Virus record (IMG/VR): IMGVR_UViG_2861084961_000001
Reading direction: 5' to 3' (one strand)
Length of the DNA stretch: 64,000 nt
Origin: a virus
Taxonomy: Duplodnaviria; Heunggongvirae; Uroviricota; Caudoviricetes
Each line of letters begins with the position of its first letter. Within the stretch, counting starts at the first letter, position 1. Shown here one piece after another: positions 10,112 through 62,941 of this stretch. The position numbers and the translations under genes are program-made. The notes under the pieces were generated by a model. The model was not told the origin of the DNA and made no database searches. It saw nothing but the letters and a program-made list of their open reading frames with translations.

Positions 10112-10186
10112 GATGGTGTAGCTCAGCGGTAGAGCAGTTGGCTGTTAACCAACTGGTCGGTGGTTCGAATCCACCCACCATCGCCA
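10112..10186 (+). tRNA. tRNA-Asn (anticodon GTT)
   Basis: Cloverleaf by eye: acceptor gatggtg/caccatc, anticodon loop ctGTTaa, T-loop ggttcgaat, CCA end. Confidence 0.8.
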
Positions 10187-10191
10187 ATTTA

Positions 10192-10278
10192 GGGGAGTTA
10201 GTCCGTAGAGGTAGCGGTGTAGACTGTAAATCTACTGTCATGGCGACTCGGGTGGTTCGACTCCATCACTCCCCACCA
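10192..10278 (+). tRNA. tRNA-Tyr (anticodon GTA), type II with long variable arm
   Basis: Acceptor ggggagt/actcccc, anticodon loop ctGTAaa, T-loop ggttcgact, CCA end. Confidence 0.75.
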
Positions 10279-10282
10279 AATT

Positions 10283-10358
10283 GCCGGTTTAGCTCAGTTG
10301 GTAGAGCGCCTGCCTTGTAAGCAGGATGTCAGCGGTTCGAGTCCGTTAACCGGCACCA
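10283..10358 (+). tRNA. tRNA-Thr (anticodon TGT)
   Basis: Acceptor gccggtt/aaccggc, D-arm agctcagttggtagagc, anticodon stem cctgc/gcagg with loop ctTGTaa, CCA end. Confidence 0.75.
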
Positions 10359-10582
10359 ATACAACGATAAGATCATTACGGTTAATCGTCGTTCATGTGC
10401 ACAATGACTGGTCGAAAGGTAGTGATCTTACCGTTGTGGTGGATTCGCAGACTGATGCGATAGCTTTCTTGGATGTTAGGGAAATGCGGCCGCAAATCTT
10501 CCCTTTCGCGAGCGGTGATCGTCCGTAGTCCTAATTGGCTGCACCGTATGCCGGAGATTCAGTACCGGCCACCACAACGGCC

Positions 10583-10669
10583 GGAGAGTAGGGAGCATGG
10601 TGCTCAAGCTGTCTTGAAAACCGCCCCATTGCGCAAGCGATGATGGTTCGATTCCATTACTCTCCGCCA
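10583..10669 (+). tRNA. Type II tRNA-like gene, anticodon TGA (Ser?), imperfect stems
   Basis: Acceptor ggagagt/actctcc, loop ctTGAaa, T-loop ggttcgatt, CCA; anticodon stem and variable arm pair poorly, may be non-canonical or pseudo. Confidence 0.5.
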
Positions 10670-48227: not shown

Positions 48228-48833
48228 TTGAGAAAGAAGATGATTGCAGCCGAAAAAATCAAACAGCGAAAGCGCGACAACTCTCTTCGTGACCTCTGGA
48301 GAACACCTGATTGGCTGTTTTCTGCCATTCAACGTTATCTTGGGGTGACATTTGATGTTGACGTTGCCTGCAACAAGGACAATGCAAAGCTGCCTAATTT
48401 CATAGGCGTTGAGCGTGATGCTTTGAAATCTGAATGGGGACAGCCAGGTACAATTGCCTTCCTCAATCCACCCTACTCCAAAATCTCCCCCTGGATTGAT
48501 GCTGCTATACGTGAGCAGGCTCGCGGAGTTACAACAGTGATGCTAATTCCTCAATCCCTCGATACAAAGTGGTATGAGCGTGCAACAGAGTATGCGAATG
48601 AGACGATTATTCTGTCTGGTGGCCGCGTAGCGTTTGTCGAGCCTGACGTCAATTTGGGTCAGGTAGAAGTAAACATCAACCCCGGTGGCAGTATGCTCGT
48701 TGTTTTTCGAGGATTCTGTCAGGACGCTGGGCACTCTATAAGCAAGATCCCTTTGGACGTAATGAAAAGTCTGGGAGGGTATGATCCTGCGAATGTGGTC
48801 AGGAAAAAAAGACCATCAAAGAAGGCTGCTTAG
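48228..48833 (+). CDS. Phage-type DNA N6-adenine methyltransferase (orphan)
   Basis: Catalytic motif FLNPPYS; ~200 aa; no adjacent restriction endonuclease. Confidence 0.7.
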   Translation: MRKKMIAAEKIKQRKRDNSLRDLWRTPDWLFSAIQRYLGVTFDVDVACNKDNAKLPNFIGVERDALKSEWGQPGTIAFLNPPYSKISPWIDAAIREQARGVTTVMLIPQSLDTKWYERATEYANETIILSGGRVAFVEPDVNLGQVEVNINPGGSMLVVFRGFCQDAGHSISKIPLDVMKSLGGYDPANVVRKKRPSKKAA

Positions 48834-52076: not shown

Positions 52077-52643
52077 ATGTGCAAGAAATGCAAAGCGATA
52101 GCTGATGAACAAAACGCCTTATTCGAAGAAATGGATGCTAATGAACTGGTCAAAATGTTAGCCATTCTTCGAGGAATAGAAGACGTTTCCATATTTGAGA
52201 GAGTGGTTACAGCACTTAATTTTGAGTCCACCTTTGAAGAGCCAACTCAGGTTGTAGCTTTAGCACATCATTTCGGTGTTCATTATCTTGCTGAAAAAGA
52301 GAGAGCTGATAAGTTGCAAGCGACTTTGGATATGGTGAGCGAGACTCAAGGAACTCATGACGGTAACAAAAGTGAGACGATTATTGCCAGCAAAGATCGT
52401 GAAATTGCCGGGCTTAAATCCTCTCTAACGATGTTGATGTCTGCAATTAACCTTATGTCTTCTAAAGCAGGTTATAAAATGCCATCACTAAACAGCGACG
52501 ATCCGATGGCCGTTCGCCAGCTTTTAGGTGCAATGGCCGACCAGCTCGACGACACAAAGAGTCGCCTTGAAGACATGATGCGGGAGCTCACGCATCGCCA
52601 TGACTTGAATAAGCAGCCACACAAAACGCAATACGCACTCTAA
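52077..52643 (+). CDS. Hypothetical coiled-coil protein (188 aa)
   Basis: Conserved start context. Confidence 0.45.
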   Translation: MCKKCKAIADEQNALFEEMDANELVKMLAILRGIEDVSIFERVVTALNFESTFEEPTQVVALAHHFGVHYLAEKERADKLQATLDMVSETQGTHDGNKSETIIASKDREIAGLKSSLTMLMSAINLMSSKAGYKMPSLNSDDPMAVRQLLGAMADQLDDTKSRLEDMMRELTHRHDLNKQPHKTQYAL

Positions 52644-52784
52644 TACTGCACCAGTCGACAGGGGGCGAAAGCCCCCATTTTTACGCCTTAAATCTGCTGT
52701 AACGCCTATGAATGCAGCTTTTATGCCTTTTCAAGTTTGCGATAATTACACCAATAAGAAAACAAATTATTTAATGGTGTAATT

Positions 52785-54470
52785 ATGAATACAGCCCTTT
52801 CCATCATCGACGATGCCAGCTCAAACACGGCTATCGACTATCGTCAGGAAATGAATGTCATCCACGAAATCGTGGACGAGTGCGAGAAAGAGATCGCCTT
52901 CATGTATCAGGTACACGACTTCGTTTATGGCGACGAACGCCACAACATGATTAATCGCCTGCTGAGACTAAACCATCGACCAGATGAAGATCGCTCGCGT
53001 TTAAATCGAGGTTGGTTGGATAAAGTTGATCTGGAATGGGTGAAACAGAATATTTGGGCCGAGTACTGGAGGAAGGTCACGGACATGACTAACGTTTTGC
53101 TGATCATGCCAGCTTCCCGTCGAGATGAGTGGCGCGAGCAGTTTATAGAGGGCAAACAGGAAGTCATCAAAACTGACAGAACCGGCTACCAGATGAAGGT
53201 TAAAGAGTTCGTTGGTGTACCGGAGTTCAAAGCAGAAACGGTCATACCCACGATGCTTAATTTGCTGAATGACAGGCACAAATATCTCTCTGAGCGCGTG
53301 TATGGCTTGTTTAAGGCGCTGAGTCCTGCGCACAAGACAAATAAGACAAACGGTTTCAGCGAGCGTCTGATAATCGCTGACTGCATTTCTGATTTCTGGC
53401 GGGACAGCGTTAGCGTGAACTATCGCAAAGAGGACTACATCGACGATCTGCGTGTCTTGCTTCATTTCTTCGCGCACAAAGAATTTATTACCATCAACCG
53501 CACTGCTGAGGTGCTATCAGCTGCGTATCGGGCAAACGACTGCCAGACCGGTGACTGGATGAACGTCGATGGAAATCTGATGCGCGTGAAGATGTTCAAG
53601 AACGGCAACGTTCACTTTGAAATACATCCTGACGTGGCCTGGAAGTTGAATGAGGTGCTGGCTTACAGTATGCCTGCTGCAATCCCCGCGCCATGCCGAA
53701 CTGCGCCAAAAACACGGGCACCAAAGCAGTTCGGTTTAATCCAGAAGACGATCTCCGTGCCGGTTCGCACTGCGCTTCGTGACGGGCGATTGAGCAAAGA
53801 CAAAGGCGTATGGTACTTCTCTGATTCAGCTCTCCAGAAGTCGCAGGTGGAAGAGCTTGAGCGCACACTGAGCTTCATTGGCGGCGTGCAGGAGAAAAAG
53901 CACTGGCAGTTCCCGTATGACATCGGCCATACGCTAAATACGATTGTGGCTACCGGTTTAATACCGGATACAAAATCACACCAGTTCTACCCTACCCCAC
54001 GCTTGATTGCTGAGTACGTTGCCAGAGCCACTGAATTGAAGCCTGGTGAGAAGCTGCTTGAGCCTCACGCCGGACGTGGGGATCTTCTGGCCTATATTAA
54101 CGCCGATCTGGAAGATGTTACCTGCATAGAAATCGCACCTCTCTTCGCTGATATCCTGCGTGGAAAAGGGTATACGAACACGATTTGCTGCGACTTCATA
54201 AAGTGGTCTGAGGACAACGCAGGTTATCAGTTCGACAAAATCGTTATGAACCCGCCGTACTCGCTTGGTCGTCATAGGGAGCACACGATGGCTGCGCTGG
54301 GGCATCTGAAAGTCGGCGGGCGTCTTGTAGCAGTATTGCCGGGCACTGCGCCAATACTGGACTGGATGACGATGGATAATTACGTTTATGCCAGAGGGAA
54401 GTCGTTTACCAACGAGTTTGAAGACACAGGGATCACAGTCAGCGTATACGTTTTCAAACGCGTTAAATGA
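52785..54470 (+). CDS. Large protein with C-terminal N6-adenine DNA methyltransferase domain and ~400 aa N-terminal domain of unknown function
   Basis: FYPTP, LLEPHAGRGDLLAYI (SAM-binding) and VMNPPYS (catalytic) in C-terminal third; 561 aa intact ORF. Confidence 0.7.
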   Translation: MNTALSIIDDASSNTAIDYRQEMNVIHEIVDECEKEIAFMYQVHDFVYGDERHNMINRLLRLNHRPDEDRSRLNRGWLDKVDLEWVKQNIWAEYWRKVTDMTNVLLIMPASRRDEWREQFIEGKQEVIKTDRTGYQMKVKEFVGVPEFKAETVIPTMLNLLNDRHKYLSERVYGLFKALSPAHKTNKTNGFSERLIIADCISDFWRDSVSVNYRKEDYIDDLRVLLHFFAHKEFITINRTAEVLSAAYRANDCQTGDWMNVDGNLMRVKMFKNGNVHFEIHPDVAWKLNEVLAYSMPAAIPAPCRTAPKTRAPKQFGLIQKTISVPVRTALRDGRLSKDKGVWYFSDSALQKSQVEELERTLSFIGGVQEKKHWQFPYDIGHTLNTIVATGLIPDTKSHQFYPTPRLIAEYVARATELKPGEKLLEPHAGRGDLLAYINADLEDVTCIEIAPLFADILRGKGYTNTICCDFIKWSEDNAGYQFDKIVMNPPYSLGRHREHTMAALGHLKVGGRLVAVLPGTAPILDWMTMDNYVYARGKSFTNEFEDTGITVSVYVFKRVK

Positions 54471-61840: not shown

Positions 61841-62941
61841 TCACACTGCGCGGAATGCGATTTCGCCAGGTATTACTTCACCTTGCCAATACATTTGGGC
61901 AGCAACGCGATCTGCGAGGTCACGATAAATAGCCGTAAATTCGCTATCTGGACGACTAATAACGGTTGGTGTTCCGTTATCCAGATCCTCACGAAGAGAG
62001 ATATGAAGTGGCATTTGGCCTAACAACTGCGTGTTGTATTTCTCGGCCAGTTTCTGTGCGCCACCGGTGCCAAAAATTGGCTCGTGATGACCGCAGTTAC
62101 TGCAAATATGCACACTCATGTTTTCGACGATACCTAGTACCGGCACTTCGACTTTTTCGAACATCACAATGCCTTTCTTCGCATCGATCAGCGCGATGTC
62201 TTGCGGCGTAGTTACCACAACCGCACCAGTTACAGGAATGTTCTGCGCCAGCGTCAATTGAATATCACCAGTGCCCGGCGGCATATCGAGAACGAGATAG
62301 TCCAGATCAGGCCACAGTGTTTCCTGCAACATCTGCATCAGCGCCTTGCTGGCCATCGGTCCACGCCACACCATTGCATTGTCGTCGGTGACCAGATAAC
62401 CAATAGAGTTGGTTGCCAGGCCATGAGACATGATAGGTGCCATGTGAGTACCGTCCGGTGAGGTTGGACGTTGGTTTTCCGCACCCAGCATGGTTGGAAT
62501 TGATGGACCGTAGATATCGGCATCCAAAATACCAACTTTCGCACCTTCAGCAGCCAACGCCAGTGCCAAGTTTACTGCTGTGGACGATTTGCCTACACCG
62601 CCCTTGCCTGAGCTGACGGCGATGATGTTCTTAACGCCATTAATGCCTGGTTGGTTTTTGACGCGCTTAAGCGTGGCAATGTTGTACGACAGCTTCCAGT
62701 CGATAGCCTTTGCGCCAGTGATACGGAGCAGATCACCACTACATTGCTCTTTCAGGTCTTCAAAAGGCTTATTCCACACGAAAGGCATGATTAGTTCGAC
62801 ATGCAGTGTGTCATCCATCAACGCAACATGGTGTAACGCTTTAAGCGTAGTCAGGTTGTGCTTCAGGGTTGGGTGCTGAAAATTAGCCAGCGTACCGGCT
62901 ACCATTGCTCTCAGGGCATCCGGCGATTTGGACTCGCTCAT
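61841..62941 (-). CDS. apbC: Fe-S cluster carrier ATPase ApbC/Mrp
   Basis: 366 aa; P-loop GKGGVGKS, CxxC; chromosomal gene divergent from metG as in E. coli. Confidence 0.9.
   Translation of the reverse strand: MSESKSPDALRAMVAGTLANFQHPTLKHNLTTLKALHHVALMDDTLHVELIMPFVWNKPFEDLKEQCSGDLLRITGAKAIDWKLSYNIATLKRVKNQPGINGVKNIIAVSSGKGGVGKSSTAVNLALALAAEGAKVGILDADIYGPSIPTMLGAENQRPTSPDGTHMAPIMSHGLATNSIGYLVTDDNAMVWRGPMASKALMQMLQETLWPDLDYLVLDMPPGTGDIQLTLAQNIPVTGAVVVTTPQDIALIDAKKGIVMFEKVEVPVLGIVENMSVHICSNCGHHEPIFGTGGAQKLAEKYNTQLLGQMPLHISLREDLDNGTPTVISRPDSEFTAIYRDLADRVAAQMYWQGEVIPGEIAFRAV

What the first reader, a model, noticed from the sequence alone, without database searches (positions are those of the whole stretch)
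52785..54470. 561 aa protein fusing an uncharacterised about 400 aa N-terminal domain to a C-terminal N6-adenine methyltransferase
This is a second orphan methyltransferase (motifs FYPTP, EPHAGRGDL, NPPY), with a large N-terminal region lacking recognisable motifs. It may be a target-recognition or effector domain. The gene is intact, with no frame break over 1.7 kb, and has its own AAACAA-N-TTATTT upstream element.
Basis: partly seen in the sequence, partly recalled or inferred. Interest (0 to 1): 0.6.

Follow-up and report, generated by a model that had tools for sequence, protein, structure and literature searches.

The report
Phage-plasmid orphan adenine methyltransferase with DUF4942
This is an intact, already catalogued gene of SSU5-type phage-plasmids: a stand-alone DNA adenine methyltransferase, probably protective against restriction, joined to a widespread mobile-element domain (DUF4942/YdiA) whose function nobody has yet established.

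Summary
The 561-aa ORF at 52785-54470 (+) is real and intact, and it carries the stated motifs: FYPTP at aa 401-405, EPHAGRGDL at 426-434 and NPPY at 489-492. The window is an SSU5/pHCM2-type phage-plasmid. The same gene, 98-99% identical, sits on over a hundred ~110-kb E. coli plasmids, where it is annotated "DUF4942 domain-containing protein". In phage SSU5 it is annotated "DNA methyltransferase" (PHROG 6263).

The C-terminal 166 aa form a minimal TaqI/EcoKI-like N6-adenine methyltransferase core with no C-terminal target-recognition domain. The same core occurs in DarB-like giant "polyvalent" phage proteins.

The N-terminal region is recognisable. Residues 88-303 are Pfam DUF4942. This domain also exists as the stand-alone 282-aa YdiA protein at the oriT-proximal tip of IncI1 leading regions. 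Published data count that family 2171 times in leading regions and once in lagging regions.

Verdict: a known family and an ordinary orphan mobile-element methyltransferase. The only open question is what DUF4942 does.

The parts
52661..52685 (+). Terminator-like GC hairpin (GGGGGCGAAAGCCCCC) plus T-run ending the upstream gene (52077-52643). It separates the methyltransferase gene into its own transcription unit.
   Evidence: scan; sequence. Conserved in Kluyvera relatives.
52760..52772 (+). AAACAAATTATTT, one copy of the recurrent palindromic intergenic motif AAAYAANTTRTTT (extended consensus about CAC..TAAGAAAACAAnTTGTTTaa), ending 12 nt before the ATG. Candidate operator or promoter element of the phage-plasmid.
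   Evidence: 10 sites against 1.6 expected; aligned contexts; conserved in relatives as AAACAATTTGTTT.
52745..52784 (+). Inverted repeat AATTACACCA / TGGTGTAATT flanking the motif. As RNA it would bury the GGUG ribosome-binding site. Only the CACCA/TGGTG core is conserved in relatives.
   Evidence: (-14.1 kcal/mol, z -3.7).
52785..54470 (+). Complete CDS, 561 aa plus stop: DUF4942-methyltransferase fusion.
52785..53045 (+). aa 1-87: poorly conserved, acidic (pI 4.9), mostly helical N-terminal extension. The first 17 residues are disordered in the model.
53046..53693 (+). aa 88-303: DUF4942 (PF13708) core, homologous to stand-alone plasmid leading-region protein YdiA. The stretch aa 146-305, which lies almost wholly within it, is the most conserved part of the protein. 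Signature motifs are LS..H.TN.P.GFS (HKTN at aa 183-186) and KNGN.H.E.HPD (aa 272-283).
   Evidence: searches (E 1.7e-20; 78 of 78 homologues), (hhalign 99.7%).
53694..53969 (+). aa 304-395: variable, basic (pI 9.6) small alpha/beta domain with a conserved FIGGV...FPY motif, directly preceding the catalytic core. Part of it (from aa 328) co-occurs with the core in a 1259-aa phage protein family.
   Evidence: (phrog_9133 matches aa 328-560).
53970..54467 (+). aa 396-561: minimal class I (Rossmann) SAM-dependent N6-adenine methyltransferase core. Motif order is X (FYPTP), I (EPHAGRGDL), II (E449), III (D470-F471), IV (NPPY). No C-terminal recognition domain follows.
   Evidence: Foldseek: type I M subunit, M.TaqI, M.BseCI, CamA, E about 1e-7; profile against M.TaqI, E 1e-5; PADLOC mad2 2e-15, MTase_II 2e-10.

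Best explanation
The gene encodes an orphan SAM-dependent DNA N6-adenine methyltransferase of an SSU5-type phage-plasmid. The catalytic part (aa 396-561) is a stripped-down TaqI/EcoKI-like core. It is the type that mobile elements shuffle among anti-restriction 'polyvalent' proteins such as P1 DarB. It methylates adenines in the element's DNA, and incidentally the host's, so that progeny DNA is pre-protected against m6A-sensitive restriction systems when it enters a new cell. Because the core has no C-terminal recognition domain, DNA engagement must come from the N-terminal parts. I propose that the variable basic domain (aa 304-395) plus variable loops in the core contact the target. I propose that the strongly conserved DUF4942 module (aa 88-303) supplies a constant function shared with stand-alone YdiA proteins: docking onto newly entered or replicating mobile-element DNA, or onto a host factor there. 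What is shown: gene integrity, the fold and motifs of the methyltransferase core, DUF4942 homology, orphan status and restriction to mobile elements. What is inferred: DNA as substrate, the protective role, and the division of labour between the N-terminal modules.
For: Methyltransferase core: all catalytic motifs are present and invariant. The core has a Rossmann fold, and DNA adenine methyltransferases (type I M subunit, M.TaqI, M.BseCI, CamA) are among its closest solved structures, alongside RNA methyltransferases. The family profile hits M.TaqI at E=1e-5. PADLOC hits are mad2 and MTase_II.

Polyvalent-protein link: the core matches 770-3900-aa phage proteins and a 'DarB-like antirestriction' protein. 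It is also fused to LPD29 elsewhere. Iyer et al. 2017 place these methyltransferases in the EcoKI/TaqI-like family and link them to protection of entering DNA (PMC5512222).

Mobile-element restriction and orphan status: homologues occur in phages between early or recombination genes, in prophage early regions, in IncHI2 plasmids, and in contigs with ParB/NikA-like contexts. No neighbour is conserved in 52 loci.

DUF4942 as a constant module: it is the most conserved region. It is homologous to stand-alone YdiA at the oriT-proximal end of the IncI1 leading region. Samuel et al. 2024 count that family 2171 times in leading regions and once in lagging regions (PMC11541004 supplement). The fused architecture is stable: of the 150 best of 612 representatives matching the N-terminal region, nearly all are 500-590 aa. 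The full-length AlphaFold model has pTM 0.69, which is compatible with a defined domain arrangement.
Confidence: 0.6

Rival explanations
1. Bifunctional 'polyvalent' counter-defence protein. DUF4942 is an independent effector, for example an inhibitor or decoy for a host defence protein. It works equally well alone, as YdiA does in plasmids. It is fused to a methyltransferase only because both act early after entry, and the methyltransferase does not need it.
For: DUF4942 exists as a large stand-alone family of about 285-aa proteins. It is placed as one of the first genes to enter the recipient in IncI1 plasmids and is strongly enriched in leading regions. The same methyltransferase core occurs with unrelated partners (LPD29, giant proteins) or alone at 265 aa. 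This is the shuffling logic described for polyvalent proteins. Polar residues are conserved across both the fused and stand-alone families (S180, T185, N186, D221, H277, N289), which suggests a self-contained functional site.
Against: The fusion is very stable and long-lived: nearly all of the 150 best-scoring representatives, 27-43% identical to the query's N-terminal region apart from a few short fragments, keep the same architecture and length. Stability of this kind is more typical of domains that work together. There is no similarity to any known anti-restriction protein, and the domain lacks the acidic DNA-mimic character of ArdA or Ocr (pI 7.9). No interaction partner is known.
Confidence: 0.2
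2. Epigenetic regulator of the element's own life cycle, not an anti-restriction device. Methylation would time replication, packaging or the lysogeny switch, as Dam methylation does for P1 pac cleavage and replication.
For: The gene lies among replication and nucleotide-metabolism genes. It sits behind a recurrent operator-like motif shared with other genes of that module. A Dam-like enzyme is also present, so two methylation marks could serve different purposes. The P1 precedent is from established knowledge.
Against: The same protein family sits in unrelated phages, prophages and conjugative plasmids with different replication and packaging systems. That argues for a generic function and against an element-specific regulatory one. 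The link to leading regions and polyvalent proteins points to entry-phase defence evasion.
Confidence: 0.1
3. The substrate is RNA (tRNA or rRNA) or protein, not DNA. The enzyme would be a phage-encoded modifier of host or phage tRNA, for instance to escape anticodon nucleases, or of the translation apparatus.
For: Fold neighbours include TrmN, Trm11, RlmKL, DIMT1/KsgA and ErmE. Weak NCBIfam and Pfam hits go to KsgA/Erm-type enzymes. The element encodes four tRNAs. NPPY also occurs in tRNA m6A and HemK enzymes (established knowledge).
Against: The best sequence-profile match is the DNA enzyme M.TaqI. PADLOC and PHROG matches are all DNA methyltransferases. No THUMP or other RNA-binding domain is detected in the N-terminal part. 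The gene's company is DNA methyltransferases and recombination genes. The homologous cores in polyvalent proteins are classed as DNA adenine methylases.
Confidence: 0.08

Closest known systems
Salmonella phage SSU5 'DNA methyltransferase' / RefSeq 'DUF4942 domain-containing protein' of SSU5/pHCM2-type phage-plasmids (PHROG 6263; 'YdiA' in the pHCM2 annotation)
   Same: Same gene: 92% amino-acid identity to SSU5 and 98-99% to over a hundred E. coli plasmid copies. Same length, same neighbours, same upstream region.
   Different: Nothing substantive; this is one more copy. None of these copies has an experimentally determined activity that I could find.
[not shown]
   Same: Homologous over aa 88-303 (hhalign probability 99.7%). 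Both are carried by mobile elements. The family is among the most leading-region-enriched in plasmids.
   Different: YdiA is 282 aa and has no methyltransferase domain and no aa 304-395 linker. Sequence identity is only about 20%. H183 of the fused family is Tyr in YdiA. The window gene is on a non-conjugative phage-plasmid, so it is not in a leading region.
M.TaqI / EcoKI HsdM-type (gamma-order) N6-adenine DNA methyltransferases
   Same: Same motif order (X, I, II, III, IV with NPPY) and Rossmann core. Best PDB sequence match is M.TaqI; close fold matches are a type I M subunit, M.BseCI and CamA.
   Different: It lacks the C-terminal recognition domain of M.TaqI, M.BseCI and CamA, and it has no S subunit partner. 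Instead it has a 395-aa N-terminal region with no structural match to those proteins.
P1 DarB-type methylase modules of phage and plasmid polyvalent proteins (Iyer et al. 2017)
   Same: The catalytic core is similar to cores inside 770-3900-aa phage proteins and a 'DarB-like antirestriction' protein. The core is also found fused to LPD29. The presumed anti-restriction role is shared.
   Different: No SF2 helicase partner and no evidence of virion packaging. The protein is small (561 aa). LPD36 was not detected by the searches run.
M.EcoGIX/YfbB single-strand-specific leading-region methyltransferase
   Same: Both are orphan adenine methyltransferases of mobile elements with a presumed or shown anti-restriction role (PMC4288162, PMC7736820).
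   Different: M.EcoGIX is a 227-aa beta-order enzyme (PF01555, DPPY before the SAM motif) with no meaningful similarity to this core.

Membership tests
Gamma-order (TaqI/EcoKI-like) SAM-dependent N6-adenine DNA methyltransferases | Class I Rossmann methyltransferase fold | tested here: met
   AlphaFold model pLDDT about 90 over aa 400-520. Foldseek E about 1e-7 to many class I methyltransferases.
Gamma-order (TaqI/EcoKI-like) SAM-dependent N6-adenine DNA methyltransferases | Motif order X - I (SAM binding) - IV (NPPY), with the acidic motif II and motif III residues | tested here: met
   FYPTP 401-405, EPHAGRGDL 426-434, E449, D470-F471, NPPY 489-492. All are invariant or nearly invariant.
Gamma-order (TaqI/EcoKI-like) SAM-dependent N6-adenine DNA methyltransferases | Target-recognition domain C-terminal to the catalytic domain, or a separate S subunit | tested here: not met
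   The protein ends 69 aa after NPPY with the last strands of the Rossmann sheet. No S-subunit gene lies nearby.
Gamma-order (TaqI/EcoKI-like) SAM-dependent N6-adenine DNA methyltransferases | Transfers methyl to N6 of adenine in DNA | not testable with these tools
   Needs a methylome or an enzyme assay. No published data were found.
Pfam PF13708 DUF4942 (YdiA family) | Score above the Pfam gathering threshold | tested here: met
   74 bits against a cut-off of 25, E 1.7e-20, aa 140-295. 78 of 78 homologues also match.
Pfam PF13708 DUF4942 (YdiA family) | Homology to stand-alone YdiA across the whole domain | tested here: met
   hhalign probability 99.7%, E 4.7e-26, window aa 88-303 against YdiA 87-281.
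Plasmid leading-region anti-defence genes | Located in the first-transferred region next to oriT of a conjugative element | tested here: not met
   The window is an SSU5-type phage-plasmid typed non-mobilizable. The YdiA relatives do meet this feature.
Restriction-modification system (Type II / IIG / I) | Cognate restriction endonuclease gene or domain | tested here: not met
   [not shown]
DarB-like methylase-helicase dyad of polyvalent proteins | Methyltransferase core of the polyvalent-protein clade | tested here: inconclusive
   The core matches giant phage protein families at E 1e-14 to 1e-20, and DarB-like Parlo at 1e-7. No phylogeny was made.
DarB-like methylase-helicase dyad of polyvalent proteins | C-terminal SF2 helicase and N-terminal LPD36 | tested here: not met
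   The protein ends at the methyltransferase core. No helicase or LPD hit in Pfam.
M.EcoGIX-type single-strand-specific methyltransferases | Beta-order N6_N4_Mtase (PF01555) core | tested here: not met
   The IncI1 M.EcoGIX homologue is PF01555. BLASTP against this core shows only the short PPY motif.
THUMP-type RNA methyltransferases (TrmN/Trm11/RlmKL) | N-terminal THUMP RNA-binding domain | tested here: not met
   [not shown]

The most novel reading that the evidence does not exclude
DUF4942 is a new, autonomous entry-phase module of mobile elements. Alone, as YdiA, it is among the first genes a conjugative plasmid delivers. Fused, as here, it steers a minimal adenine methyltransferase onto incoming or replicating element DNA, possibly single-stranded or fork DNA, or a host replisome factor. 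The fusion would then be the clue that assigns the uncharacterised YdiA family, one of the largest in plasmid leading regions, to the restriction/methylation conflict. The N-terminal region would also represent a fold absent from the PDB.
Probability: 0.3. Interest if true: 0.6.

Novelty: already known. Interest (0 to 1): 0.3.

Why it matters
As a gene it adds nothing new. It is a near-identical copy of an annotated, very common phage-plasmid gene, and orphan methyltransferases on mobile elements are a well-known way to evade restriction.

The useful point is indirect. The N-terminal DUF4942 module is the same domain as YdiA. YdiA belongs to one of the largest gene families specifically enriched in plasmid leading regions, and it still has no known function and no solved structure. 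A stable fusion to an adenine methyltransferase in phages, phage-plasmids and IncHI2 plasmids is a concrete, testable hint about what that family does. This bears on how resistance plasmids and phage-plasmids establish themselves in new hosts.

Tried and rejected

2. AFDB fold search. The library was unavailable.

3. Identity with M.EcoGIX, the single-strand methyltransferase of IncI1/IncF. I suspected this because DUF4942 also lies in IncI1 leading regions. Rejected: M.EcoGIX is a separate 227-aa beta-class enzyme.

4. Nuclease-methyltransferase (Type IIG) reading, prompted by the 'RE endonuclease' label in phage Dolphis. No nuclease domain or fold was detected, so the label looks like an annotation artefact.

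5. DNA-mimic anti-restriction protein. Rejected on charge: pI 7.9 for the core and 6.0 for YdiA.

6. Conserved partner gene. All-against-all clustering of neighbours in 52 loci found none shared by more than 6 loci.

7. Split-gene arrangement (YdiA next to a separate minimal methyltransferase). Not seen in IncI1. The stand-alone 265-aa core in Lacrimispora has other neighbours.

8. Literature. No functional study of DUF4942/YdiA or of the SSU5 methyltransferase was found.

9. The upstream RNA hairpin as a conserved translational switch. The outer stem is not maintained in Kluyvera relatives. Left as a note.

10. The 60-aa N-terminal matches on Klebsiella plasmids. These are 71-aa gene remnants beside IS elements, not a mobile module.

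11. The search for related loci with the deep alignment failed for lack of a conserved stretch. It was repeated with the shallower alignment.

Full report
**Observation.** The ORF at 52785-54470 on the + strand is present exactly as described. It has an ATG start, 561 codons and no frame break. The three quoted motifs are at aa 401-405 (FYPTP), 426-434 (EPHAGRGDL) and 489-492 (NPPY). A terminator-like GC hairpin with a T-run (52661-52685) closes the upstream gene. The quoted upstream element AAACAAATTATTT lies at 52760-52772, ending 12 nt before the ATG. It is one copy of a 13-bp palindrome, AAAYAANTTRTTT. That palindrome occurs 10 times in the window against 1.6 expected, and none of 100 shuffles reached 10. 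Every copy lies just upstream of a + strand gene and sits in a longer shared consensus, about CAC..TAAGAAAACAAnTTGTTTaa.

**What the window is.** The 3.3 kb around the gene is 98-99% identical to over a hundred ~110-kb, non-mobilizable Escherichia plasmids. The protein is 92% identical to a gene of Salmonella phage SSU5 annotated 'DNA methyltransferase'. The annotated relative shows the gene inside a block containing thymidylate synthase, dihydrofolate reductase, an exonuclease, a Dam-like 'phage N-6-adenine-methyltransferase', RNase HI, an HD-domain protein and a toprim protein. This is an SSU5/pHCM2-type phage-plasmid. RefSeq names the gene 'DUF4942 domain-containing protein', one source calls the pHCM2 copy 'YdiA', and it is PHROG 6263 'DNA methyltransferase' over its full length. 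The gene and the fusion are thus already catalogued.

**Anatomy.** Four parts can be separated.

- *aa 1-87.* Poorly conserved, acidic (pI 4.9) and helical.
- *aa 88-303.* This is Pfam DUF4942. hmmscan gives E=1.7e-20 for aa 140-295, and all 78 aligned homologues match the family. Profile-profile comparison with a family of stand-alone 282-295-aa proteins gives 99.7% probability over window aa 88-303. The stretch aa 146-305 is the most conserved part of the whole protein: mean identity to the query is 0.66, against 0.54 for the catalytic domain and 0.42 for aa 306-395.
- *aa 304-395.* A variable, basic (pI 9.6) small alpha/beta domain with a conserved FIGGV...FPY signature. From aa 328 it travels with the catalytic core in a 1259-aa phage protein family.
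- *aa 396-561.* A minimal Rossmann methyltransferase. Motifs X, I, II (E449), III (D470-F471) and IV (NPPY) are invariant or nearly invariant down to 34% identity. Among the best structural matches are a type I M subunit, M.TaqI, M.BseCI and CamA, together with TrmN/Trm11-type RNA enzymes. The family profile finds M.TaqI as the best PDB sequence at E=1e-5. PADLOC gives mad2 and Type II methyltransferases. The chain ends 69 residues after NPPY, so there is no C-terminal recognition domain.

**Distribution and context.** An exhaustive search with aa 1-395 finds 612 cluster representatives. Of the best 150, nearly all are 500-590 aa with the match at the N-terminus, so they share the same fused architecture. 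Full-length relatives occur in these places:

- Aeromonas and Pseudomonas phages, among early, recombination and nin-type genes.
- IncHI2 plasmids, beside a Dam-family methyltransferase (31% identity).
- Large contigs next to ParB-, NikA- and UmuDC-like genes.
- 338 loci of diverse Proteobacteria.

Clustering all neighbours in 52 such loci shows no partner shared by more than six loci. The recurring neighbours are prophage early genes (Cro/CI-type HTH, YdaT, YqaJ, a DnaT-domain protein, integrase) and other orphan methyltransferases. The enzyme is therefore orphan and confined to mobile elements.

**The catalytic core as a shuffled module.** The same core matches regions inside 770-3900-aa phage proteins and a 'DarB-like antirestriction' protein. 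It is fused to LPD29 in a 699-aa protein. It also stands alone (265 aa) beside DUF3560 and 'Swiss Army Knife' phosphatase genes in a Firmicute. Iyer et al. 2017 describe such EcoKI/TaqI-like adenine methylases as a hub domain of 'polyvalent' proteins that phages and conjugative elements deploy at entry, with P1 DarB as the archetype (PMC5512222).

**Most likely mechanism.** I take the protein to be an active SAM-dependent DNA adenine methyltransferase that pre-protects the phage-plasmid's DNA against restriction in the next host. The variable basic domain and variable loops of the core probably contact the target. The conserved DUF4942 module probably provides a constant function shared with YdiA: docking to entering or replicating element DNA, or to a host factor. 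The shown parts are integrity, fold, motifs, homology, orphan status and restriction to mobile elements. The inferred parts are DNA as substrate, protection, and the roles of the N-terminal modules. My confidence is about 0.6 that it is a protective orphan DNA m6A enzyme, and much lower for the specific role of DUF4942.

**Rivals.**

- DUF4942 is an independent counter-defence effector merely fused to a methyltransferase (0.2).
- The enzyme regulates the element's own life cycle (0.1).
- The substrate is RNA or protein (0.08). This is kept alive by tRNA/rRNA enzymes among the fold neighbours and by weak KsgA/Erm hits. It is opposed by the TaqI, PADLOC and PHROG matches and by the absence of any detectable RNA-binding domain.

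**Novelty and verdict.** The gene is a near-identical copy of an annotated, abundant gene, and orphan methyltransferases on mobile elements are a known kind: 'already known'. What remains open, and modestly interesting, is the function and fold of DUF4942/YdiA. The stable fusion to a methyltransferase is a usable lead for that question. Interest 0.3. The most novel reading is DUF4942 as a new entry-phase targeting or anti-defence module with an unsolved fold. I give it probability about 0.3 and interest about 0.6 if true.

Noticed in passing
window 244, 3174, 14395, 26801, 41105, 49740, 51319, 52046, 52760, 55668 (13-bp sites): Recurrent palindrome AAAYAANTTRTTT inside a longer consensus (about CAC..TAAGAAAACAAnTTGTTTaa), 10 copies against 1.6 expected. 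Each copy lies 12-55 nt upstream of a + strand start codon. It looks like a shared operator or promoter of the phage-plasmid's early or replication genes. The regulator is unknown.
   Followed up: partly
window 52742-52786: An inverted repeat around the motif folds as RNA (-14.1 kcal/mol, z -3.7) and would bury the GGUG ribosome-binding site and the AUG of the methyltransferase gene. Only the CACCA/TGGTG core is kept in Kluyvera relatives, so conservation of the hairpin is doubtful.
   Followed up: partly
window 10112-10669: Cluster of four tRNA genes (Asn-GTT, Tyr-GTA, Thr-TGT, Ser-TGA) on the phage-plasmid. Rfam confirms three of them.
   Followed up: no
window 61841-62941 (-), and onward to the window end: A 366-aa ORF is 100% identical to the gene annotated as iron-sulfur carrier ApbC on plasmid pEC00678_4, where it is followed by metG. 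These are host-like housekeeping genes carried by the phage-plasmid.
   Followed up: partly
window 48228-48833 (+): A Dam-like 'phage N-6-adenine-methyltransferase' (PHROG 111) lies 4 kb upstream, so the element carries two unrelated orphan adenine methyltransferases.
   Followed up: partly
L091 5001-5216; L092 5001-5216 (Klebsiella IncFIB/HI1B plasmids): 71-aa ORFs about 63% identical to aa 1-62/68 of this protein. They sit between IS elements and a type I restriction-modification operon and are probably remnants of a truncated copy. One is mis-annotated 'restriction endonuclease subunit M'.
   Followed up: partly
L084 4768-6867; L081 5908-6705: The same methyltransferase core is fused to LPD29 in a 699-aa protein of an Acidobacteriales MAG. 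It also stands alone (265 aa) in Lacrimispora, beside a weak, sub-threshold DUF3560 match and a PTP-SAK ('Swiss Army Knife') gene. This shows the core is a shuffled polyvalent-protein module.
   Followed up: partly
L003 4968-6656 (Pseudomonas phage Dolphis gp121): A full-length homologue is annotated 'RE endonuclease'. No nuclease domain is detectable in the family, so this is probably an annotation error.
   Followed up: partly
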